From contig BCKZ01000020.1 of NCBI GenBank assembly GCA_001600815.1, positions 274,831 through 338,830 on the forward strand: a stretch of DNA of 64,000 nucleotides. Reading direction: 5' to 3'. A program made the translations under genes and the position numbers. The DNA comes from Alloascoidea hylecoeti. Taxonomy: Eukaryota. This document shows positions 17,870-62,585 of the stretch, piece after piece. Below the pieces are notes generated by a model. It did not search any database. It saw only the letters and a program-made list of their open reading frames with translations, and had not been told where the DNA came from. Positions within the stretch are counted from its first letter, which is position 1, and the number at the start of each line of letters is the position of its first letter.

Positions 17870-20435
17870 ATGCGCAATACTAATCTAGTCCTGCATCTAT
17901 CTAATTAAACTTGTTATTTTAGAGCATATATTTTTTACTTCATTAATTTAGAAATCAATACCACCGATCACATCATTAAAATTATTACCATCACCAGTAG
18001 AGGATATGAACAATCAACTAGAAGGATTTAATGATTTAGAGTCAACGATTGAAAGGGTAGCTACAGACCCTATTAAGTTACTTTCCAACGGAAATTTTAA
18101 ACATCATTTTCAAGGAATATATGGTTAATAATTCGTTATCTAAACTTCTCACCATTACTCGAGTGTCTCGAGGTTGGAGTCGTGAATATCATCACCTTTG
18201 AAAATCACTTTTAAGTCCATCAGATCGTAAAAGATACCTTCTCTGGTTAGCAACAGTAGTTGAAAGGAAAGGGATTAATTCAAATATATTTGGACCCATT
18301 CGCAAAGAATCCTCCTCCTTAAAAAATTTCATTGAGAATGGTTTAGGTTATATACTATTTTTTGAATATGGTAGAATCGCCAATAAGAGTATGCAAGAAT
18401 TTACATGAACCCATGAAATTCAGTCTTTTCCTACCACTAAAGTGCTTGATAACTATTATGATCATAATCTTAAGGGTAAGATTCCTCCCTCTTTAATCTT
18501 AAGCGAGGAAAATTATAGAGGATTAAATATTTGGACCTATAACTTCATAACTTTAGATTGTGGAGATTTTATTCTAAAGTATAATAATGTCACATCGGAA
18601 GCAATTATATATAGTTGACATTACATTTCAATTCTCTACCAGTTTTAATTTATTTGAAGAATTCGAATAATAAGAAATTCATAAAAAAAAGTAAAAAAAT
18701 AGACATGGTCAAGAATATGACTTCAACGATGGGTTCCACATGCCAAGAGACTGGAATTTGATCAACGTCAAATCAGTAGGGGAACATATAATAATACATC
18801 CCATATCAGTTTCAATTATCAAAGTTGAGATAATTGATGATACTCACGACCGGCTGGGAGAAGAGAGTAAAGAGGAGCAACTAAAAAGTCCAATTAATAT
18901 TAGTTCTATGAAAACTATAATATCTCCCTATATAGCTGACCTTAGAGAAGTTGCTCAGCTAATAAATTCCAATAATTGATTCTATATTAGATTTAGATAC
19001 TCAAATAATAACGTTATACCATTCCAATAAGAAATTTGAACACGTCGGTTTCAAATTTATGGAGATACGTAACGAAGAATGGATGGGAACCATAGTTCAG
19101 TATACTTGTTACATGCCCGCAACACCTTATAAATTACAAGACAGAAAACTTTGAATTTGAATCATATTTTAAGAAGGAGATCGGCCGTAATCAAAAAGTG
19201 TACCTATAAATGAGATTAGAAGGTTGGAGCACTATGGAATGAACAGACTATCTAAGAAATCGGAATACGCTAATGGGATTAATATGATATTTTACATCTC
19301 CCAACAGGAAATATTACCACATCCCTATGTGACTTAACATCTTCTCTATGTAACCTGAGTATGAAGATTGAAGATGTTATAATTGAAAAACGCGACAATT
19401 ACGATGAAGAATCAACAAATATATTCCTAGCAATGATCGTGATTATCCCACAAAATTTTATCCCAGGAGACACGGATGATGAAGAGGATCCTTACTATTT
19501 CTGTAGAAGAGTTTTTCAAACTAAATACTCGAACACTAAAGGCATCAACTCCAGTGGATATTCCCATGTTATGTATATCTTCATCCCTTCCCTTGATTAT
19601 AATTATAAACCAACTTATTGTTGATGATAATGGATCGAAAAACGTTTTTATGTCTGGGTGTCTATACATCAAAATCTTACAAAATACCAATTATGAATTA
19701 TCAACTTCAGTCTTGTCTACCAGATATGATAATGATGATAAAGAAAAACCAAGAAATGCTCTCAAAATATATAATGTAAAGCTTTTCAAATTGTCCGATA
19801 ATAAAAAAAATAATGAGTATTTAGGATTTATACTCTTCTGTGCCCAAGTTGGTTTGTTTTTATTCAATATCCATACGCTCCACTCATAAAAGTTCGAAGT
19901 TCTACTTTCTACACTCTTTCAACATTAAACAATTGTATTTGCGACACATCAATATTATTGGGATAACTTTAATGAGTATAAGATCTATAAAATGACTACT
20001 GGTGAGTTGTTAGGAAAGTTCAGATTGGAATAAGTTAAATATTCAAATAATTTTGAATATCTTACTTTTGTGAAAGATGTACATGTTTATAGAGATATGT
20101 TTTATGAAGTTTCGCTGGGAATGCCAAAAGAGATATAAGACTTAAATTCACTTGATTCCCTCACATTTCAGAATGAAGAGTTGCGAAATCTAAGAAAAAT
20201 AGAATATTTGAAGGTTATTGCCTTTGGACATGATGTTGCTTTGGAAAAGATCTTAAAATCATAATAGAATGGGGAATCAAAGTGAAAAGAATTTCAACAA
20301 AGAAATATATATGAAATTGTAATTTGAAGATCTGAAATTTAGATATACTTTTTTTTTAAATCAACGAGATTGTAATTATCTCTAAAAGTTGAATGAAGAT
20401 GTAGTGTATTAATTAGTTCAGTATACTATAGTGTG
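17870..20435 (+). pseudogene. Decayed F-box gene, copy A of a dispersed duplicated unit
   Basis: ATG at 18006, then a frameshifted F-box DPIK/YFPTEILNIIFKEYMVNNSLSKLLTITRVSRGW; many stops and frameshifts; co-linear with the reverse complement of 60590-62585. Confidence 0.75.
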
Positions 20436-26277: not shown

Positions 26278-27843
26278 TTAGCAATAAAAAAGCATCCGCC
26301 CTGCATATTCGTACATCATCCCTGCAGTATCTGCAACGGGTATACTTGCCCTGTTACCCGCATGTAAGTCGCACACCTCCAGTAAATCTGCAGCAACTGC
26401 GCACATTTGCCCGTCTGTTTTGTACTGACGAGTCTGTACAAGCACACTCCACCCGCACACTGCAATCCGGAAACCATGGGATCCGTATGCAGGTTCTACC
26501 GACCCTCTCCCTCGCCATATCCTCCTCCACGTGCCGACAGGCACACATCCGGCTTTAGGGCTTAGTCGGCGGTCAGCAGTCACACAGCCCTCCAATTGCT
26601 CAAGCCCAGTTAAAAAACCCTCCAGTTCCATAATATGAATCTCTAACTCCTTTTGCGAAGTATAACTCCCCTTTACAACGAATCCTCCGCTCAAATACAC
26701 CTCGCTGATATATCTCCTCATCTCCTGGTACTTCGCATACTTATTTGTTAAAGCATTGACTAGCCAGTGCATTCCTAAATACCCTCCACTTCTGCTATCG
26801 ATAACACACGAATAAAATCTAGAGTTATGATGATCTATCGTATCTAAAACCTCAATAGGTACAATTAAAACTTCTGATGTCATTTGTAAACTTTGCTTTG
26901 CGTATAACCCTGGCAGAAAATTAAACTTTTTCTTCCCGATCATTTGAGTCCTTATCCTTAATTTTGTTTCCCAATTCAACTTTGAATTTCGATCATAATT
27001 TTTTATTATTATTTCATTGCCTTCTTCTAATACCTGTATAATGACAAGATTATTTTTATGAACAATACAATAATCTTTAAAATTTATTTCAAATTGTTCA
27101 ACATTAAAATTATTTATTTTCCATGTGTTTTCAATTTTTTTATTAAATACAATATCTTTATAGTCATTTAAAGCATTGTCTGATATAGTATTGTCATCAA
27201 AAATAATTGCTTTTATAATCTTTTCTTCATGATCAATTGTTAGTGTTTCTGACATAATACCATTTTTCATTCCAATTGGTATGATTATTTGTCCATATTT
27301 ATGTACATCATTATCAATAGTGGAATCATCTTTTGATATCATAGTAAGTTTCCAGGATACTCTTTCTATTTCAAGAGTATAATTTGATTTTTCTTTTAAA
27401 TCTTTTATTTCCATTAATAAATTTCTTTTATCATCTTCGAATTCATCATCATATCCAATTGATAATTCATCCAATATATTAAAACGACATTTCAATTCTT
27501 TAAAAATAAACTCTTCTACATATCCCATATCTTCATAATTATAATTATAATAATCACAATTATTATCCTTTTTATGAGTTTCATGTGCAACAAGTAATTG
27601 AAACTTTTCAATATTTTTATTAATTTCTTTATATTCTTTTTTTAACTTATTACCTGAAATATTATTACAATTGAAATTAAGATTCTGGTTATAATTTAAA
27701 AATGATTTCAAATTTATATTCAATGGGTTATAATGTTGAAATGTCAACTTACAACAAAAACAAAAATTAAATGAATCTTTTAATGAAAGATAATTATTAA
27801 TTAATTGTAATAGGATATCCTCCGGAAGGTCGTATATTTTCAT
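26278..27843 (-). CDS. F-box domain protein (521 aa)
   Basis: N-terminus MKIYDLPEDILLQLINNYLSLKDSFNFCFCCKLTF is F-box-like; the rest is unrecognised. Confidence 0.7.
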   Translation of the reverse strand: MKIYDLPEDILLQLINNYLSLKDSFNFCFCCKLTFQHYNPLNINLKSFLNYNQNLNFNCNNISGNKLKKEYKEINKNIEKFQLLVAHETHKKDNNCDYYNYNYEDMGYVEEFIFKELKCRFNILDELSIGYDDEFEDDKRNLLMEIKDLKEKSNYTLEIERVSWKLTMISKDDSTIDNDVHKYGQIIIPIGMKNGIMSETLTIDHEEKIIKAIIFDDNTISDNALNDYKDIVFNKKIENTWKINNFNVEQFEINFKDYCIVHKNNLVIIQVLEEGNEIIIKNYDRNSKLNWETKLRIRTQMIGKKKFNFLPGLYAKQSLQMTSEVLIVPIEVLDTIDHHNSRFYSCVIDSRSGGYLGMHWLVNALTNKYAKYQEMRRYISEVYLSGGFVVKGSYTSQKELEIHIMELEGFLTGLEQLEGCVTADRRLSPKAGCVPVGTWRRIWRGRGSVEPAYGSHGFRIAVCGWSVLVQTRQYKTDGQMCAVAADLLEVCDLHAGNRASIPVADTAGMMYEYAGRMLFYC

Positions 27844-42821: not shown

Positions 42822-43760
42822 ATGGATCCAATAAGTATTGGCTTCCTAGTTCTTGATGTTGGTTTAAACGCTTTCATGACAGCTTCAAGACGTTTAGAAA
42901 ATCAACATGCTCGGCAAATACAACAATTAAAAAAACATAACTCCTCAATATCCTATAACACAGATAAAAAGAAATTTATTATCGATCCGTGTATTAGTAT
43001 TAAATCAGGTTGCCTTATAATTAACTATATCAAAATTCTTGATGGTCAAGGTAAATTAATATTTTCACTACAGAGGAGGTTAACTAAATCCAAAATTAAA
43101 CTATCACGATTACAATTAAAGTCACAGGGTTATAAGTATAATGATAGATGGTATTTATACGATAAGAAGAATTTAAATGTTGCTATTATATTTATAAAAT
43201 CTCCGATTGTTCACATATTTTTCAACAAGAAATTCAATTTACCTACTTATATTTCTTCAACAAGAACAAGGATTAAAGATAATCAAAAATTTCAAGTATT
43301 TTGTGAATATGGAAAACCGTTCTGTTCGTTAGAACATGGTTATTTTAAATGGACAGAGGATTTATATTTAGAAAAGGTTAATGAGAAAGAAACAAATATT
43401 CTATGTTTGGGTAAACTAATTAAAAAAGATCAAGTTCAACATTCACATCAATCTCAAAATTCAAACTCATATGAATTTTATTATGATGATAATGAAATTG
43501 ATTTAAAAGTTATTATAGCTACTTCACTTGTTTCTTTTTTTAATCAATGGGAAATGAATTGTAAGGTTAAATCTGTTAATGTCTACCCTGGTCGTAAAAA
43601 TAGGCATAGTTATGATAATAGAAGCAAGCGGGTGAAGATTATTTATGCAGTTAAAATAATATTAAGAGATGGAATACTCTTCATTAAGAAAAATTTCTGG
43701 TTCAACAGAAATAGGAATTCAAAACCTACGATATCGGCGATTAACATAAATCGGAATTAA
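42822..43760 (+). CDS. Uncharacterised protein (312 aa), possibly tubby/LURP-one-like
   Basis: Intact ATG ORF; beta-rich pattern ending in the helix IDLKVIIATSLVSFFNQW; family assignment tentative. Confidence 0.6.
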   Translation: MDPISIGFLVLDVGLNAFMTASRRLENQHARQIQQLKKHNSSISYNTDKKKFIIDPCISIKSGCLIINYIKILDGQGKLIFSLQRRLTKSKIKLSRLQLKSQGYKYNDRWYLYDKKNLNVAIIFIKSPIVHIFFNKKFNLPTYISSTRTRIKDNQKFQVFCEYGKPFCSLEHGYFKWTEDLYLEKVNEKETNILCLGKLIKKDQVQHSHQSQNSNSYEFYYDDNEIDLKVIIATSLVSFFNQWEMNCKVKSVNVYPGRKNRHSYDNRSKRVKIIYAVKIILRDGILFIKKNFWFNRNRNSKPTISAININRN

Positions 43761-44163: not shown

Positions 44164-45784
44164 TTAGGGTATAACCAACCATTTCTGTGCCTGGAAGAAT
44201 TCATAAATTTTGGCAGTTTTATTGACATCGATTTTAATTAATTCTCTAGCTGTTCTTTTTCTTAAGATTCCACCAGTTCTTAATAATTCTCTAAATAATG
44301 TTTCTTTAATAGCAAGGTACGGTTTTGGATAAAGACGTAATTGAGAACAAAGTTGCTGTTCTTCAGGACTTAATAAATCAACATCAGCGGCGTGTGATAT
44401 ATCAATGGGAGTAGCTTTCTTTGAATTATTATTTTTAAAATCGTTTCCATTTGTGAATGGATATGGTGACAAAGGTCTTGGCGATCTTCCATTAACTTTA
44501 AAAGAAGTTGCCATTGAATTTGCTGTATGTCTTGCAGGACCAGAAGATGATAAAGGAGCATTACCCATACTAAATCTAGCTAACATATTAAGTCTATTTG
44601 CTTTGTCCTTTTTAAATTTTGCAGCAACTTGAAATGATGTTATACCGTTACGACGATAATCTTGTAATTCTGCTATTTGTCTCCTACATTGATATTCAGT
44701 TAATAAACCTCCAGCAAACTCTTCAAAATCAGCGGGAGTCATTAACCTAGCAAATGGTTTCATTCTATTGAATAAATCTTTTTCTTCTTTGCTTCTTTTT
44801 TTTTCAGAAGATATATTCCTTCGATATTCTAATAAATGATGTGTTAACATTGTTCTTTTCCTTTCAGCTCTTGAAGTCAAACGTGAATTATAAATATGCA
44901 AGACAGTAAGTTTTAAATTGATATCTTGCTCATTATCCTCTGGTTCAAATATCATATCTTGAACTACTATATCAGCTTCATTTTCATACTCTGTGTCAAA
45001 CTCTAAACGCCCAGGCATATAACCTTGAACTTCATGACAACTAGGAACGGAAGCAATTGTCTTGTCCTTAGGTAGAGGCATTGGAGCATTCCTTCTAGCT
45101 TCCAGTCGAGCCTTTTGTCTCCTTGTAAATTCTGGTACAGAAATGTGACTGAAATCTCTTTTTAAATCAGGTAAAGGATAGTCGGGACTATCAATATACA
45201 CTTTCAAATAATGATCTCTAGTTTCTTCTTTTGATCTTCCCCCTATGTTTTCGGCAATATCTTGCCAATTACCCAAACCGTAGGCCTCAGCACCTTCAAT
45301 TAAAGACAATTCCTCATCAGCTCCCCAATCCTCTGAGAAAATAGGATATGAATGCTTCTCCACAATGTGGTAGTCATGCCAAGGTTTGTGGGTCCCACTG
45401 GAGGATCCTTCAGTAAAACATTTGACACAAAGATCATATTCCACGCACTCCGCACAGCGGATTCTTACCATGTGTGTGCAATCGCAAGCACAAACATCGC
45501 AATGAAACCTGAATGATAGAAGAAGTTAGTAAACAATTAAAATACACACTCATCACCAATTGCAAATGATTGACTAACTAGGAAAGAGATGCCCATAATA
45601 CGTTACTATGGCAACACATACAAAGTAGGTTTTCGTGGCATGTATGTTTGGAACCCAGCCAATCACAAGCAGACACAGCTATCTGCCCCCTTTTTTGTAT
45701 AGAGATGTGGCGAAAAAAGACATACTTTACTCCTGGCTCTGTGTTTAAAGCCGGTCCAGCGTTTTTACGGTGAATAACAGTCAT
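44164..45784 (-). CDS. ADA2: SAGA/ADA adaptor Ada2; exons 45784-45726 and 45508-44164 (467 aa)
   Basis: ZZ finger KFHCDVCACDCT...YDLCVKCF, SANT DWGADEEL...GLGNWQDIA, GYMPGRLEF, SWIRM; 217-nt intron GTATGT..TACTAAC..CAG. Confidence 0.95.
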
Positions 45785-52499: not shown

Positions 52500-54139
52500 A
52501 TGGCTCAACTGAACGATCTTCCACACGAAGTTATCCAGATAATTATTGATCACTTATCATTTTCCGTTTCTTTGCGCTTTCGTGAAACTTTTATCGATTA
52601 TTTTCATCTTGTTGAACTGGCTTTTTCTACTTTAAAAGTCGATGAGATTGCTTTAATATTTCAATCATCTCAAAATATGTCAGTTTATATTAAGAGATAA
52701 ATTTCAAATTATCAAATATAATTTATATTCAAAACAACAAGAAAACCTTAACATTTAATATCCTTGATACATATAGTATACAATCCAAACCTATTATGTA
52801 TAGGTATCCTATTTGTGTCCAATATGTAGACAATATAATTGATCCTCGTGACCATACCCAAACTGAGTTTGATGATTACTCCATAGATGAGTATAAAACC
52901 AATATTCAGTCAACACCTGAAGACGAAGAAGATGAGAAGCTGCTATAAATCAGTCATATTACTCGCAATATTAGTATTGATGCTAATGTCAATATTTTCT
53001 CATTTGGGAAAAGTTTCTCGTGTTTTGATTATCAAATATATGGTGATGAGTTTAAATCGAATGGAACAGTGCCATTTCCTCGTCAAAATAAATCATCCGT
53101 CAAAATTTCAACTGCACCAAATAATTTGCCACATGCAGTAAAAGAAGTTGGAAAATGGAATATACCAATTGCAGCAAAAACATGTCTTGGCGAGTCAACG
53201 GCCGCGGAAGTGAATAATATACTAAAAGATAATATTAATGGTTTTAGTGCTTCACATGGAAAGTATCTCATTAATCTGAAATTGGAATATAATACAGATC
53301 ATTGTTGCTCTCACTATGTAGAAGAAGTTGAGGACTCGTTTTCATATTTACCAGTAAGTCATACTTTTACTTGTTATAATAATCAATTAGAAGGTAGTAC
53401 AATAAATTCAAAAATAATGTGGAAGATAAAACTTAACTCCAAGACAAATAATATAAATGTATTTATGAGTGTCAAAAATGACCTTCAAATCAAATTCTTA
53501 AATGATCGATATGTGATGATTCCGATCAACATTTTAATTGCAATGAAGGGTTCTCTGAACTCACGCTCAAATTCCAATTCTCCACATGATAATGAAAATC
53601 TATATTGGTATATCATTAATTTATCTTTTGGTTGCTTTAATATGCAGAAAAATCGTTTTGGTTCAATTTTAAATATAGACTCAGAAATTAAAAAGAACAT
53701 TTATCGGGCTGGCCAGATCTATGTTGATGGTCCTGATGTATTTACAACTGTTTCTGATTACTTACATACTCCAAATGAAGAACGGACTCATGCGAATATA
53801 GATTCAGATGGATATATCAAACCGTTTTTACACAAGGTGCTTATGATGCCTCTAAATTCATTTTTACTAGCATCTCAAATTGGTAAATGTGATGAGCTTT
53901 TAATAAATAATATTTCTTCAGAACTTAAACACAAAATTGGTCTTCACAGTTTTAATAATTATAATGAAAGCTATATTCGAAATCCTTCTAGAAAAAAAAT
54001 TTTGAGATTAAGAAAATTCCAACAGAGCAAATTAAATGGAAATCAGTTTTTTAAAATGTCGATCGGTTATGGGGTAAGAACACAACTAGTACCTCCAACA
54101 TTTCATGGCGAGATTCCTATGTTTCATTACAATTCATGA
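52500..54139 (+). pseudogene. Disrupted F-box gene
   Basis: MAQLNDLPHEVIQIIIDHLSF (F-box) from ATG 52500 stops at 52698-52700; coding-like sequence resumes in another frame, has an in-frame TAA at 52946-52948, then runs open to 54139. Confidence 0.7.
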
Positions 54140-56831
54140 TTTAGGCTTTGTATAGATTATAAAAACTTTTGGAATAATAAGATCATAATTCTAGCTGATT
54201 ATTCTGTCTATAAGGATGAAAGTGCTGAACTACATAATAGCTATTCAATAGTTTATATGTTATGATCTTGAAACAGATAGACAACAATATATAAAACAAA
54301 ATTTTTAGAGAGTCCAAACAAAAAATAAAATTAATATGATATGGATCTTATGTTGAATTATTAATTTAAATATTATATAGTTAAGAAATTTCCTTATAGT
54401 TTTTAGACATAAGATTACTCACTTCTCCCAAGTTCTTCTAATGATTTCCTTTCATTTTAATTTTTAATTTTTCGTCTTTTGATTTCTTTTTCAATATAAA
54501 GCTAACTCATTGTTGTCCAATAATTAATACGTTATCTCTTGGTATACTTATAAAGCTTTTTAGATATAAGTTATATTAATATCAAAAATTCGAACATTTG
54601 CTTCCTTTAAATTAATGTTAGGTATGTAGCTATAGCTATAACCACGAAGTAGTCATACTACGAGAATTGTAGAATATCCAATGAGCTCACGAAGCCTCGT
54701 GTAAAAATCCAAAAAAAAAGTCATTATGTGATTCCCATTATAGAACTTCACTGAACAAATTACTATTCACCAAGTGAAACACTCAAATCTTAGACTGTGT
54801 TAATATATTCATTGATTCAGAGTCACATTTACCATACACCCAATTAGTTATCCAAGTTTTCAATTGAAATGAAATAATTTTCTACTTCCAATATTCATTG
54901 AACTATTTTGTTCCTTCTCCTCCTTGAGCTTCACCAATTCTTGCATAGTTTCATTTAGTTGTTTAATATAAATCTCTAAGCTCATTGTTGTGTAAGCGAT
55001 TTAATGTGTTATAGGAAAATTATTAATCTATTCTCAGTTATCTTATTATAAGTGGAAATCATCTACTCTATATATATGTAATTTATTCTACCCCTCAAAA
55101 ATAATGTAAATCTTCTAAGTCATGATGTTTCAAGCTAGTAAACCCAATAAACTATTTTCATTCTTATACTTATACTTATACTTATAACTATGAATCAAGG
55201 TGAATTATAATGCTACTATAGCCTATATATATAACTATCTATATGTATTATATTATTTACTTGCGAATGTAATTGAATCTAATTAAATAACAATGCAGTC
55301 AAACAAAAGCTTAGTCTATTATAAAAGAGGGAATGTCTCTTCTTATATAGATTAGATAATTAACTTTTTACTAAAAAGAGGTGGTTGGTAACATTAGAAT
55401 GAGGAGGTAGATAATACCAGTACTCGATGGTTTAAAAGTTTTGATATACTCAGTCCAATATTACGAAGTTGAAAAAATATTTTATCAACGATTTTATAAT
55501 TTAATCCAACTTTTAGAGTGAAATTATTAGAACTTCCTTTTATTGTATTATATGTAGTTAAGTCAACCAATAGTCTCAAAATCACAAGCATAGCAAGTTG
55601 TAATGTGAATTCTCCATCATATATTCAATATATATTAATTGAAATCTTTAGCTTTTTTGATCCTTTTTGTTTAACAGCTCATTTACTTTATTGTTAATGA
55701 GATGTTGATATCGATATCTACCAATATCACTTTTAGCTGCAACTGCAGTACTGTCACTGGATGATTTCGGAAACTAAATGAATGATATCATGATTGGTAA
55801 CGTGTACAGTCTTATAAAATTGCAACAACACTGAATAAATTAGTGGCTTCTTCCCATATTATATTAACATGACAATCAGCTACTAATCTATGGCTAGTTA
55901 TATTCATTTCAATATCATGCCATTTAGAGCTTCCATACGTTCAGAGCATCTAGGAACCGATAATTTACAGTTAATAGCATTTGGCAAAACAGGTGGAATC
56001 CCCTCTAGTTTTCAGTGTTTCTATCAACATTAGGAGTGCATTCTTTAATTCCCACGAATATTGCAGTATGACAAGGGAGTATCATTAAACTAAGAAGTTT
56101 AAATGCTAATGAAGAGGGGTTCTACTAAGCTACAGCATTTTATTTTACTAGACCAAATCATTCTTGTTGTAAATATTTTATTTTAATATTATTCTGGAAT
56201 ACACATTTTAATGAAGCTGTAGGAATCAATAAACAATTATCTTTCTTTATCTTCTTATTTATAATTGAGCCATTTTAATGGTTATAGATTCGGTTGTTTG
56301 AGGCCCCATTCTTAATTAGCTCCCCATATTGAAATTGTGGTTGTATGCATAATAAAACTGCGTATAAAGAACTCCAAATATTAGTATTATCTACTCATTA
56401 ATTAATCATAGTTTTCAAAAATATTTTTCTATAAGTGAAAATATGTGGTCTACTTGTTTCGATGAATAACAAATTTAAATTCAGGATCTCTTAATATATC
56501 CTCAACATATAAGACTATATATATATAAGGTTATAACACCTACGTGAGGCTCTAATACTTACATAAGGTTCATATACAACAGACTCCATCCTGTTCTTGA
56601 TGATTTTGAACAACGTTGAACGTAGTAAAATCTTGAATTTAAGGCTATATATCCCTATACGGAATACGCACAATTTTAAGTAGTGTTGCGCATAAATGTG
56701 CTGCTACCCCGGATTTCTCAGCACGTGTGTGCGATTTTATATTTTTGGTTTTGAGATTCTTTTCTTTCCTTCTTTTAAATTTGGATATTTATTGATCTTC
56801 TCACCTTCTTTTTTTATTAATATTAAGCAAA

Positions 56832-58763
56832 ATGACTAAATATAATACAGACGACCAGAAATGGCAGGCTCTACTGGACAGAGACCCCGACGCTGAGGGT
56901 CAATTTGTGTACGGAGTCACCTCCACTTTTATAGTGTGTCGCCCCATTTGTCCTAGCAGACTGGGCCTCAAAAGAAATGTTGTGTTTTTTAACACAATAA
57001 ACGAAGCTATTTCAAATGGTTACCGACCATGCAAAAGGTGTAAGCCAGATGATGAAACATGGAACAAACAAAGGCAGGTTGTTATGGACAGTTGTGAAAT
57101 TATACAAGATACGGTTGAAAGAGGGGGAAAAAAAATTTGCCTTGAAGACCTTAGTAAAAAAGTTGGGCTATCGAAATGGCATTTTCTTAGGGTATTTAAA
57201 AATTATACCCAACTGACACCCAGAGAATACTATTCCCAGCTTAAATCAGGAGATATAAGTAAGATCATATCATTTCCTAAAATTGTCACCAAAAAAACTC
57301 TTCAACTAAGGAAAGAAAAGAAAGAAAATCAACGAAAAGCTTTACAGGAAACCATCACCCCAACAAGTTCATCAGACAGGAAACTGACGGAAAAAGAAGT
57401 GTGTGAAGGAGGTTGTGATGTCTCTCCCAATAATGATAGTTTCACGAGCGAAAATTCAACAAAACAACATTTAATCAAAGCCCCCAACTTAGCGAACACA
57501 TGTCTCAATAATAATAATATAAATTCCGATGCCGAGGATTATCAAAACATATTAAATGAATTTATGGAATTCCCCCAGGAACTAATGTATTCCGACCTTT
57601 CTCAGAATCAATCGAAACAAAATAATGAATTCGCCAATAAAGCATGCCATCCCGCAATGTCTCCAGCAAGTTTAAATATCGGCTTAACATTGCCGACTCC
57701 AACATCACCCTCAAGTACTACAAATAATCATCCAACCATGGGTGCTAAAGAAATTGATATTTTTAATCTAGATGATCATACTCATCCACAGCCAAAGAAA
57801 GTGAAATTAAATGATGCAACTTCTGTTCCGATTAATAGAAATCATCATCAACCACAAAGACCGGAATTTCATCATAAATATCGACACTCATCAACTTCGG
57901 TACCTTTAAATGTAATGAGTCCCTTTTTACAACCACACTCTAATTATTTCTCTCCCTATTTGACTCCATCTTATAATGTTCCAGAATCTCCAGACCTTCT
58001 CCCAAATCTCAAAGTTGAAGGATTTCAACCACAATTACAATATATATCACCACTAGCTGAACCTATTGATGTAGAGCATGGTCTCTCGCCCTTAGGGTTT
58101 CCAACTCCTTTAAACTTGAATGATACACGGAAAAAATCAATTCACAATCCATCAGCTTCAATTAATCGATATTCTCAAATTTCAAGTCGTTTGTCATCGC
58201 ATGGTATTAATATTGGGAGTACTTTTACTTCCGGATCCAGAGTCCCTAAATTTCCCCTTAGTGTAGGCTCAAGTTTACATGACTTAACTTCCGATCTTGA
58301 TTTACCTTATAACCAGCAAGGTGGTTTGAAAAATTCGTCTGATTATGAATTATCACCCCAGTCTGTTACAAAGAGACCGATTTCAGAAACTACTTATCTA
58401 CAGAATGATATTGTTTCACAAATGTATACGAAAATGTCTCCAACTCAAATGTCTTTTCCACAATCACAATTTGATATACTACCAGAGTCTAATTTCAATG
58501 TTTCTTCGGAACAACAAGGTAGCAATTCAAATACTGAGTCTCCTATGACCTTACAAGCAAAACAAATGATTAAAAAAGAATCATTGAAGAGTATCAATGA
58601 AAATGAAATAGCTTTTACGATGAATTTAAATATGGGCGGGGAAAACTTAAGCTGTAATGAAATTCAGAATAAACAATTTCCACAAACGGCGGGAGATTCG
58701 GAAGAACAAGATAATTTATTGGAATATTTCCCAGAGTTACAGGCATTCCAATTTCAACAGTAA
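56832..58763 (+). CDS. Ada-type Zn-binding (methylphosphotriester methyltransferase) domain + AraC-type HTH + long low-complexity tail (643 aa)
   Basis: C36-RPI-C40 and GYRP-C67-KR-C70 have the same spacing as E. coli Ada C38/C42/C69/C72; HTH LEDLSKKVGLSKWHFLRVFKNYTQLTPREY; no PCHR motif. Confidence 0.9.
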   Translation: MTKYNTDDQKWQALLDRDPDAEGQFVYGVTSTFIVCRPICPSRLGLKRNVVFFNTINEAISNGYRPCKRCKPDDETWNKQRQVVMDSCEIIQDTVERGGKKICLEDLSKKVGLSKWHFLRVFKNYTQLTPREYYSQLKSGDISKIISFPKIVTKKTLQLRKEKKENQRKALQETITPTSSSDRKLTEKEVCEGGCDVSPNNDSFTSENSTKQHLIKAPNLANTCLNNNNINSDAEDYQNILNEFMEFPQELMYSDLSQNQSKQNNEFANKACHPAMSPASLNIGLTLPTPTSPSSTTNNHPTMGAKEIDIFNLDDHTHPQPKKVKLNDATSVPINRNHHQPQRPEFHHKYRHSSTSVPLNVMSPFLQPHSNYFSPYLTPSYNVPESPDLLPNLKVEGFQPQLQYISPLAEPIDVEHGLSPLGFPTPLNLNDTRKKSIHNPSASINRYSQISSRLSSHGINIGSTFTSGSRVPKFPLSVGSSLHDLTSDLDLPYNQQGGLKNSSDYELSPQSVTKRPISETTYLQNDIVSQMYTKMSPTQMSFPQSQFDILPESNFNVSSEQQGSNSNTESPMTLQAKQMIKKESLKSINENEIAFTMNLNMGGENLSCNEIQNKQFPQTAGDSEEQDNLLEYFPELQAFQFQQ

Positions 58764-60589: not shown

Positions 60590-62585
60590 AACTATAATTA
60601 TATACTGAATTAATTAATACATTACAGTTTCATTCAACTCTTAGAGACCTGTTGTATAATAATTGCATATATTCGTTGATTCTGTGAGAGTGCGCCATAC
60701 ATCTACATTTTAGATCCAACTTTAAACTACATTTTCATATATAATTGTAAATCTAATTCACTTAGATTCTCAACCCTATTTTCATTTTAAGATATTTTCC
60801 ATAACATCATATCCAAGATCAAAAACTTTCAAAGATTCTGTGACTCTCTGATTTTGCCCCTTCATGAGCGCCAAGTGAACTTAAATTTTGTGTCTCTTTG
60901 GCAATCCTTGCGAAACTTCCTAAACCATATCTTTATGAACGTGTACATCGTTCACATAAGTAAGATCTATCTTCAGAGCCTAGGCATATTGAATAATAAC
61001 AAACCAACTTGGTTACAGATGAGTATAAATCCTAAATACTCATTGTTTTGACAAATCTATCATTATCGGACAATACGAAAAGCTTTCCATTATATATTGC
61101 AAGAACTTTTTCTGGGAATTCAAGTTTATCATACCTATACAAGGTTGAAGTATATTGTTGATAATCGGTATTTTGGGAGATTTTGATGAATGGATTCGTG
61201 TTCAGAGGCATAAAAAAGCTTTTTTGATTTATTATCATTAACAATACTATAATTTGATATATATTTATATTCAGGTGGAATACAGATAACATAGGAATTT
61301 CTGCTGGAGTTGATGCCTTTAGTGTTTCCGTATTTAGCTTCAAGACAACTCTTCTATGGCCATAGCAAGGAACTGTCCTTAAATTTTTTGAGAAAACCAT
61401 TGGGATCCGGAGAACCGTTGGGAATATGACATTCATTGCTAGGAATATATTTGTTGATTCTTCATCGTAATTGTCGCGTTCTTCAATTATAACATCAATA
61501 ATCTTCAATAGTCTCCTTATATAGAAAGGATATCTAATCACATAGAGATTTGGTTATTTTTCCTGTTGGGAGATGTAAAATATCATATTTACTCCCATAA
61601 AAGATTACATATTCTGATTTCTTAGATAGCCAGCGCATGCCTATTCCGAAGGTCTCCCACATCTTAGACCGATCCATAAGTTCGTGCCTTTCCATTACCG
61701 CCCTTTTTATTTTTTAAGCAGGATCCACACTCAGATTCTTGTAATGAAGTTAATCTATAAGGGGTTGCGGGCATGTAACAAGTGTAACTTTCGTGATGAA
61801 TTGATTAGAATGAATGTTCAGCTCCTCATACTTCCCTGAGATCAGGTAAATAAAGAGATATTAATGATTTCATAAAACTAATATTCATTGGACTTTTGAG
61901 TTGATCCTTTTTACTTTCCATTTGCAGTCGGTTATGAGTGTCATTGATTATGAGTTCGGGGAAACATTACCTTTAAGATTATGATCATAATAGTTATCAA
62001 ACACCTTTATGGTCCGAAGAGTCCGAATTTCCGAAGGTTCTGTAAATTCTTGCATAGTCTTATTGGCACTTATATTATATTATAAAAAATAATTTATAAC
62101 CTGAACCATTTTAAAGATTTTTTGATGAGAAACCTTTGCGAATGGATGCACATTTTCTTGAATTACTCTCTTTCCTTTTCCTTTCAATTATAGTTGTTAA
62201 CTATAGTAAGTATCTTTTACGATCTGATGGACTTAATAGAATTCTCTAAAGGTTATGACATTCATTATTCCAACCTTGAGAGACTCTTATAATGGTGAAA
62301 AATTCAAATAACGAATTATGAACCATATAATTCTTGAAAATGATGTTTAAATTTTCCGTTGGAAAGTATTTAACAGGGTCTACCCTTTCGCTTGTTGACT
62401 CTAAATCATTAGATCTTCTTGTTGATTGTTCATATCGTCTACTAGTGATGATTGTTTTAATTATGTGATCAGTGCTACAGTATTGACAGTATTGTCTTGT
62501 ATAAAAATAATATATAACTTTATAACTTTATATTATACTCTACAACTACCAGATTTGATAGATGCATAATCAGACTTGCGCATAT
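60590..62585 (-). pseudogene. Decayed F-box gene, copy B (inverted paralogue of 17870-20435)
   Basis: Shared blocks such as IIE.RDNYDEESTNIFLAM and TLKASTP; F-box DPVKYFPTE/NIIFKNYMVH near 62380-62310; carries different deletions from copy A. Confidence 0.75.

What the first reader, a model, noticed from the sequence alone, without database searches (positions are those of the whole stretch)
56832..58763. Ada-type alkylation sensor fused to a long eukaryote-style tail: candidate adaptive-response transcription factor in a yeast
Seen: residues ~1-140 keep all four Ada Zn-ligand Cys, including the methyl-acceptor equivalent C36, plus the AraC-type HTH. No PCHR alkyltransferase or AlkA domain follows. 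Instead there are ~500 aa rich in S/P/Q/N, with an NLS-like PQPKKVKL, many SP/TP sites and an acidic-hydrophobic end (DSEEQDNLLEYFPELQAF). Known: methylation of E. coli Ada Cys38 turns it into an activator; Aspergillus has an Ada-like adaptive response; S. cerevisiae lacks one. Inference: the bacterial switch may have been rewired into a Pol II activator.
Basis: partly seen in the sequence, partly recalled or inferred. Interest (0 to 1): 0.75.

Follow-up and report, generated by a model that had tools for sequence, protein, structure and literature searches.

The report
Yeast Ada-type alkylation-sensing transcription factor
This is a real yeast gene of a known fungal family of DNA-damage sensors borrowed from bacteria; it stands out only for an unusually long floppy tail and for sitting in a genome where the repair enzyme it normally switches on was not found.

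Summary
The gene is real: 643 aa, Ada zinc domain (C36/C40/C67/C70), one AraC-type helix-turn-helix, all five DNA-reading residues of E. coli N-Ada kept or conservatively changed, no PCHR or AlkA domain, and a coding-like tail of about 500 aa. It is a budding-yeast member of the fungal stand-alone methylphosphotriester (MPT) regulators. Their Aspergillus fumigatus member is already shown to drive an MNNG adaptive response, and the same paper lists MPT in Candida albicans and Debaryomyces hansenii. So the 'rewiring' is old and family-wide: 23 of 29 yeast-clade members end in an acidic-hydrophobic segment. What is particular here is length (508 aa against a median of 117; another clade reaches 1,050-1,135) and context: five searches found no PCHR alkyltransferase in G000, only an ATL, so the canonical target seems to be missing. 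The tail has no detectable homologue, narrowly fails a published activation-domain predictor, and has no RNA support. An Ada-box-like promoter site is at chance level. Side findings: a second, divergent pan-yeast Ada-derived family (two copies in G000), and a relic of the alkyltransferase's first half in 18 fungal-clade proteins. Ordinary member, moderate interest.

The parts
56832..58763 (+). Gene for a 643-aa fungal MPT/Ada-type regulator (P0001)
56856..57050 (+). Ada zinc domain, residues 9-73; C36 (56937-56939) is the equivalent of methyl-acceptor C38; C40, C67, C70 the other ligands; R43 and R69 the equivalents of A-box readers R45 and R71
57141..57230 (+). Single AraC-type helix-turn-helix, residues 104-133; W116, H117, R120 match B-box readers F114, H115, R118
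57276..57353 (+). Yeast-clade motif P-x-[IV]-x-T-K-[KR] and a predicted basic helix (149-174); T153 invariant, P149 and K154 at least 90% conserved in 30 aligned proteins; candidate extra DNA contact or nuclear signal (inference)
57357..58760 (+). Low-complexity tail, residues 176-643: 39% S/P/Q/N, 15 SP/TP sites, coding-like, no homologue found
57480..57638 (+). First acidic-hydrophobic patch (217-269; best 39-aa tiles net charge -7, 7-9 W/F/Y/L): candidate activation segment, below the published threshold
57786..57809 (+). PQPKKVKL (319-326); fits the recalled K-[KR]-x-[KR] NLS consensus; not seen conserved
58620..58757 (+). C-terminal acidic-hydrophobic patch (597-642; net charge -7, 7-9 W/F/Y/L) with an L-x-x-[LY]-F-P-[ED]-L end motif: candidate activation segment, below the published threshold
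56686..56699 (-). Ada-box-like site about 135 bp upstream (GCAA box with a one-mismatch A box six bases away); candidate only, not above chance

Best explanation
It is the budding-yeast orthologue of the fungal stand-alone MPT regulator, a bacterial Ada N-terminal half acquired long ago by ascomycetes. Shown by sequence and model: a zinc-thiolate site and one HTH with the N-Ada fold and its DNA-reading residues. [quoted passage not shown] Inferred: having lost C-Ada, the part that contacts bacterial RNA polymerase, it activates through short acidic-hydrophobic patches in a disordered tail (about 217-269 and 597-642), as most of its relatives appear to. The extra 300-400 residues are a lineage-specific low-complexity expansion, possibly phospho-regulated, not a new domain. 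Its targets are probably itself plus alkylation-tolerance genes other than AGT (ATL, MAG1-like or AlkB-like genes are the candidates present); no target is shown.
For: Domains and fold. All four Cys in 31 of 31 yeast-clade proteins; R43 29 of 31, R69 30, W116 30, H117 29, R120 30 (roles from PMC4437013). P0001 lies in a clade of 29 yeast-type proteins (support 0.95) inside a fungal-type clade (0.91) on a 108-column tree; named members are from Hyphopichia, Martiniozyma, [Candida] boidinii, Lachancea and Nadsonia. Nearest Atlas clusters are 241-260-aa ascomycete proteins. AfMPT repairs MPT and is required for induction of itself and AGT (PMC3439912). Acidic-hydrophobic last 40 residues in 23 of 29 yeast-clade and 45 of 101 other non-bacterial relatives, against 1 of 68 bacterial proteins and 3 of 15 other window proteins. 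The published predictor (equation 3) fires in 17 of 30 yeast-clade tails and 6 of 68 bacterial ones. The AfMPT reverse primer reads as an acidic-aromatic end too.
Against: P0001's own tail passes none of the three predictor equations (best charge -7; -8 or -9 needed), and equation 3 also fires in 5 of 15 unrelated window proteins. My looser end test was set after seeing the sequences, and the bacterial control ends in a folded enzyme. The tail has no homologue among 5,772 candidates of 353-1,126 aa. Five yeast-clade proteins other than the partial P0022 have tails of 60 aa or less. No AGT gene was found in G000. No Ada box stands out in the ATL, AlkB-like or own promoter, or in four homologue promoters. 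AfMPT itself was not among the fetched proteins, so orthology to it rests on the paper's description.
Confidence: 0.62

Rival explanations
1. The sensor chemistry is kept but the regulon has moved: with AGT gone, the factor uses alkylation (or another electrophile, thiol or metal signal at the zinc site) to control stress or metabolic genes, and the long phospho-site-rich tail integrates kinase signals.
For: No AGT found in G000; the only PF01035 match is a PWWR ATL closest to S. pombe Atl1. SP/TP sites exceed chance. A long basidiomycete Ada-type protein, SaraC (54.9 kDa), was reported to raise secondary-metabolism genes when overexpressed (PMC9769804). A. fumigatus ada is listed as 1.2-2-fold up under itraconazole (PMC8227032).
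Against: Every A-box and B-box reading residue is unchanged from orthologues. ATL, MAG1-like and two AlkB-like genes are present as possible repair targets. The genome may be incomplete and the searches score only the best candidates. A scan for genome-wide Ada-box-like words gave no coherent gene set.
Confidence: 0.2
2. It is only a suicide MPT repair protein or a weak autoregulator; the long tail is tolerated, nearly neutral expansion and does not activate.
For: Tail length runs from 39 to 508 aa in the clade with no shared sequence; the tail fails the published predictor; 6 of 29 yeast-clade ends fail even the loose test.
Against: HTH base-reading residues and the post-HTH basic helix are conserved, which repair alone would not need. 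Acidic-hydrophobic ends recur across the clade despite no sequence similarity. AfMPT is needed for induction.
Confidence: 0.12
3. The long tail is partly a prediction artefact: an intron or read-through inflates a shorter protein.
For: Orthologues are much shorter. A relaxed scan finds 4 weak donor-branch-acceptor candidates, one in frame (57399-57605, 207 nt). This genome does use a non-standard donor in the ATL intron.
Against: 468 codons without a stop (chance about 1e-14), gene-like codon scores in all three thirds, many stops in the other frames; no strict branch-point word in the region; the frame ends in the family-typical acidic end; a sister clade has 1,050-1,135-aa tails.
Confidence: 0.05

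Closest known systems
Aspergillus fumigatus MPT (Afmpt, AFUA_5G06350; PMC3439912)
   Same: Stand-alone Ada N-terminal module with the four Cys and an HTH, no AGT domain; ascomycete family that the paper also lists in C. albicans and D. hansenii.
   Different: Yeast clade with a P-x-[IV]-x-T-K-[KR] helix; tail about four times the clade median; no AGT gene found in the genome, whereas the paper takes MPT plus AGT as the requirement for the response. The parts of the paper read do not assign an activation domain.
E. coli Ada, N-terminal domain (PDB 1u8b, 1zgw, 1wpk)
   Same: Same fold, zinc ligands, methyl acceptor and A/B-box residues.
   Different: No second HTH and no C-Ada19 (PCHR, RNA-polymerase contact); NCBIfam PRK15435 scores 118.9 against a cut-off of 345.
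Bacillus subtilis AdaA type (split Ada)
   Same: MPT and regulator separate from the O6 alkyltransferase (as described in PMC3439912).
   Different: AdaA-like protein P0132 covers HTH_18 positions 4-79; P0001 covers only 1-31 and has a eukaryotic tail.
Stereum hirsutum SaraC (PMC9769804)
   Same: [quoted passage not shown]
   Different: Basidiomycete clade; reported as a demethylase and secondary-metabolism regulator, not tested for an MNNG response in the sections read.

Membership tests
Fungal stand-alone MPT regulators (AfMPT type) | Ada zinc domain with four Cys including the C38-equivalent acceptor | tested here: met
Fungal stand-alone MPT regulators (AfMPT type) | HTH after the zinc domain | tested here: met
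   Pfam score under cut-off but aligned to N-Ada and modelled at pLDDT above 90
Fungal stand-alone MPT regulators (AfMPT type) | No AGT (PCHR) domain in the same chain | tested here: met
Fungal stand-alone MPT regulators (AfMPT type) | Falls in the fungal MPT clade | tested here: met
   (support 0.91-0.95, 108 columns; AfMPT itself not in the set)
Fungal stand-alone MPT regulators (AfMPT type) | Methyl transfer from methylphosphotriesters | not testable with these tools
   needs the in vitro assay of PMC3439912
A. fumigatus-type adaptive response (MPT induces AGT) | An AGT gene with PCHR in the same genome | tested here: not met
   only a PWWR ATL; assembly may be incomplete
A. fumigatus-type adaptive response (MPT induces AGT) | Ada A/B boxes in own and target promoters | tested here: inconclusive
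   one-mismatch site upstream, at chance level; none exact in ATL or AlkB-like promoters, one at -18 of a MAG1-like gene
A. fumigatus-type adaptive response (MPT induces AGT) | MNNG-induced resistance that depends on the gene | not testable with these tools
   bench test
E. coli-type bifunctional Ada (PRK15435) | Second HTH and C-terminal PCHR alkyltransferase | tested here: not met
Ada-AlkA fusions | AlkA_N and HhH-GPD domains after the HTH | tested here: not met
Acidic activation domain (Kotha and Staller predictor, PMC10550315) | 39-aa tile with charge -8 to -13 and W+F+L of 6 or more (or the stricter equations 1, 2) | tested here: not met
   best tiles -7 at 217-269 and 597-642; predictor built on human factors and tuned for few false positives
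Divergent yeast Ada-derived paralogue family (P0020/P0021 type) | 95-156-aa insertion between zinc domain and HTH, loss of the R71 equivalent | tested here: not met
   P0001's clade has a 22-30-aa spacer and keeps R69

The most novel reading that the evidence does not exclude
Fungi turned a full-length bacterial Ada, not a stand-alone AdaA, into a Pol II factor by letting its repair half decay into an acidic disordered activation tail (18 fungal-clade proteins still carry a relic of that half). In this yeast, which appears to have lost AGT, the covalent methyl-cysteine switch now drives a different regulon through a 500-aa kinase-tuned tail, while a second yeast-wide paralogue keeps the zinc site but reads different DNA.
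Probability: 0.2. Interest if true: 0.65.

Novelty: new member of a known kind. Interest (0 to 1): 0.33.

Why it matters
How a bacterial Ada module activates RNA polymerase II was not addressed in the papers read. A yeast member with two candidate activation patches and no AGT partner makes two questions directly testable in ordinary yeast assays: which part of a fungal MPT activates, and what it controls when its known target is absent. The gene alone is not surprising to a specialist, since the family, its regulatory role in Aspergillus and its presence in yeasts were published in 2012.

Tried and rejected
RNA support: no RNA holder listed; three metatranscriptome contig sets laid at 80% likeness gave only 18-40-base low-complexity scraps. 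No evidence either way on expression or splicing. Full-length single-sequence AlphaFold model: mean pLDDT 36.5, low even over the folded core, so not used as evidence of disorder. Ada box by motif search: AAT-N6-GCAA (boxes, spacing recalled) 22 window matches against 19.7 expected; a recalled 14-base E. coli ada promoter word at 3 mismatches, 20 against 18.7. A post hoc WT-N5-CGCA count is highest in this promoter (2, against 0-1 in 18 other window genes) but is absent from the ATL promoter by the related patterns; a weak hint only. Genome-wide Ada-box-like words: 53 against 32 reversed controls, but the spacer is not specific (10 matches at two bases, 10 at five), and of 11 stretches inspected three are copies of one repeat and several lie inside coding frames; rejected as a regulon. 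Orthologue promoters: the metagenome scan returned mostly bacterial Ada (57 of 63 complete frames with PCHR); one yeast-type and three filamentous-type promoters showed no shared box. Gene cluster: no alkylation-repair neighbour among 19 window frames scanned; the ADA2-like gene at 44164-45471 is a SAGA subunit, a clash of names. Alternative CUG code: CTG at L44 and L128 aligns with conserved or common Leu, so the standard code was kept. Recent transfer from bacteria: rejected, best relatives are yeast proteins. Earlier scan notes: nothing on this gene or family; two bacterial sigma-factor notes do not bear on it.

Full report
Window 56832-58763 (+) is a single open frame of 643 aa on contig C20 of G000, a 24.8-Mb eukaryotic assembly in 136 contigs. 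Its neighbours are ordinary yeast genes such as an alcohol dehydrogenase, a SNF2 helicase, a Y-family polymerase and protein kinases; none of the 19 frames scanned is an alkylation-repair partner. Residues 9-73 match Ada_Zn_binding (E 4e-29). Residues 104-133 match HTH_AraC weakly (21.9 bits, cut-off 26.6), and HTH_18 only over positions 1-31 of 80, so there is one HTH. The alignment to solved E. coli N-Ada pairs C36/C40/C67/C70 with C38/C42/C69/C72. A review of Ada (PMC4437013, passages) names R45 and R71 as A-box readers and F114, H115 and R118 as B-box readers; here they are R43, R69, W116, H117 and R120. A model of residues 1-175 built on 30 sequences has mean pLDDT 94, and its four significant fold matches are all N-Ada, best 1u8b at E 6e-13.

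The tail is real coding sequence as far as sequence can show. Residues 176-643 score 0.187 on a codon model trained on window genes (11 genes, leave-one-out, -0.008 to 0.232; 720 intergenic windows -0.19 +/- 0.10), and the other five frames hold 24-48 stops. It is 39% S/P/Q/N with 15 SP/TP sites against 7.9 +/- 2.4 by shuffling. A relaxed intron scan leaves 4 weak candidates, one in frame and 207 nt long, which only RNA can exclude. A search with the tail alone found no protein but itself among 5,772 candidates of 353-1,126 aa; shorter and longer proteins were not searched.

The family is large and the architecture is common. A full phmmer scan with residues 1-160 gave 5,869 hits at E 0.001; of the best 150, 147 lack PCHR. 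I grouped 31 proteins by a shared post-HTH motif, P-x-[IV]-x-T-K-[KR]. On a 108-column tree of 197 sequences (4 dropped for lack of an HTH match), 29 of them, with P0001, form one clade (support 0.95); the other two join an 11-member clade, all under a node at 0.92. The members that carry names are from Hyphopichia burtonii, Martiniozyma asiatica, [Candida] boidinii, Lachancea dasiensis and Nadsonia fulvescens; 30 proteins were looked up and most are unnamed. All four Cys are kept in 31 of 31. Tails measured from about residue 135 run from 23 (an annotated partial) to 233 aa, median 117; P0001's 508 is the longest, but three proteins of the sister clade have 1,051-1,135. The nearest ESM Atlas clusters are 241-260-aa ascomycete proteins.

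This family is known. O'Hanlon and colleagues (PMC3439912; abstract, sections 13, 16, 23, 24, supplements 2 and 4 read; the promoter figure is a picture and was not seen; supplement 3 not read) showed that A. fumigatus MPT is a stand-alone Ada N-terminal protein, repairs methylphosphotriesters, and is required for MNNG induction of itself and of AGT. Their Table S1 lists MPT in Candida albicans and Debaryomyces hansenii and not in S. cerevisiae. A 54.9-kDa basidiomycete member, SaraC, is also described (PMC9769804; abstract and sections 5, 6). AraC-type HTH is on a list of typical fungal DNA-binding domains (PMC5415576, passages). Ten literature searches listed no functional study of a yeast MPT or of the activation region of any fungal MPT; the library lacks most subscription papers.

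How it most likely works. Shown: fold, ligands, DNA-reading residues. From established Ada chemistry: methylation of the acceptor Cys relieves repulsion between the zinc thiolates and DNA and allows site-specific binding. The same review says C-Ada is what contacts RNA polymerase; this protein has none, so any activation needs another surface. The last 40 residues are net acidic by 5 or more with 7 or more W/F/Y/L in 23 of 29 yeast-clade proteins with tails of 40 aa or more, 45 of 101 other non-bacterial relatives, 1 of 68 bacterial proteins and 3 of 15 other window proteins. I set those thresholds after seeing the sequences. A published predictor (PMC10550315, passages) fires in 17 of 30 yeast-clade tails, 61 of 101 others and 6 of 68 bacterial ones, but also in 5 of 15 unrelated window proteins, and not in P0001, whose two best patches (217-269, 597-642) reach -7 where -8 is needed. 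An end motif L-x-x-[LY]-F-P-[ED]-L occurs near the end of 7 of 150 proteins including P0001 (0.02 expected by shuffling), but it was picked by eye and five of the seven are one clade. So an activation role for short acidic patches is a fair inference for the family and only moderately supported for this protein; the bulk of the tail and PQPKKVKL are not conserved.

The more telling peculiarity is the genome. PF01035 finds one gene in G000, a 129-aa two-exon protein with PWWR in place of PCHR whose best solved match is S. pombe Atl1. TIGR00589 and PF02870 find nothing, a full bacterial Ada finds only the three zinc-domain genes (it also missed the ATL, so its reach is limited), and the 4 matches to a PCHR codon pattern are not in alkyltransferase frames. 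ATLs mark lesions for excision repair and do not transfer methyl groups (PMC10779285, passages). A survey of 1,154 yeasts reports MGT1 missing in under 10% of background strains (PMC12629084, passages). The assembly may be incomplete, but on present evidence the known target is absent, and the O'Hanlon criterion of MPT plus AGT is not met. MAG1-like, OGG1-like, NTG-like and two AlkB-like genes are present (names from my reading of the sequences). No regulon could be read from promoters.

Two side results. First, G000 has two more PF02805 genes (590 and 555 aa), a duplicated pair, belonging to a separate family with 215 hits that include Candida albicans, Komagataella, Ogataea, Metschnikowia and Scheffersomyces proteins. 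They keep the four Cys and a near-invariant HTH in 24 of 24 aligned, have a 95-156-aa insertion between the domains, retain the R71 equivalent in 1 of 120, and also carry long tails (median 256 aa). Second, a profile of the C-terminal part of 55 bacterial Ada proteins scores 8 bits or more on 23 of 103 non-yeast-clade tails, 0 of 30 yeast-clade, 0 of 120 paralogue tails and 0 of 1,265 shuffles. Eighteen of the 23 lie inside the fungal-type clade and match the first, non-catalytic half of the alkyltransferase, after a low-complexity linker. They are unnamed, so fungal by tree position only. This suggests descent from a full-length Ada, against the Firmicutes AdaA origin proposed in PMC3439912; my tree did not sample Firmicutes properly, so this is a lead.

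Verdict: observation confirmed; interpretation partly supported. A new member of a known fungal family, with an outlying tail length and an apparently missing partner. Interest 0.33.

Noticed in passing
L004:5400-7172 (+), G000 C10; L005:2715-4382 (-), G000 C8: Two paralogues (P0020, 590 aa; P0021, 555 aa; about 76% DNA identity over 3.2 kb with flanks) of a second, yeast-wide Ada-derived family: four Cys and HTH invariant, 95-156-aa conserved insertion, A-box arginine R71 lost, long acidic tails. No study of it appeared in the literature searches.
   Followed up: partly
P0079, P0117, P0112, P0067, P0071, P0108, P0088, P0164, P0087 and nine others: Fungal-clade MPT proteins that keep a relic of the non-catalytic first half of the Ada alkyltransferase at their C-terminus, hinting that fungal MPT came from full-length Ada.
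   Followed up: partly
L007:1342-1803 (+), G000 C6: The only alkyltransferase-family gene found in G000 is an ATL (PWWR) with a 72-nt intron that has a GTTTGT donor; it is head-to-head with an RPN11-like gene (RPN11 by my reading).
   Followed up: yes
P0054, P0060, P0072: Sister-clade Ada-type proteins of 1,198-1,282 aa with only the zinc domain recognised by Pfam and 1,050-1,135-aa low-complexity tails; unnamed.
   Followed up: partly
L012:3998-4540 (+): A yeast-type MPT of only 180 aa (46-aa tail, no acidic end) whose 3' end overlaps an opposite-strand gene; shows that some orthologues do without a long tail.
   Followed up: partly
L102, L103, L107 (G000 C4, C10, C22): Three near-identical copies of a repeat lying at or beside kinase-like or lineage-specific frames; they inflate motif counts.
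   Followed up: no
window 53417-54139 (+), 61032-61436 (-), 42822-43760 (+), 26278-27843 (-), 19476-19889 (+): Frames with no Pfam match at E 0.01; 26278-27843 and 109-1821 begin like F-box proteins.
   Followed up: no
L092:742-2259 (+), G000 C48: AlkB-family gene with a long N-terminal extension and a Cys-rich C-terminal end, resembling CUE and GRF-finger AlkB homologues by my reading.
   Followed up: no
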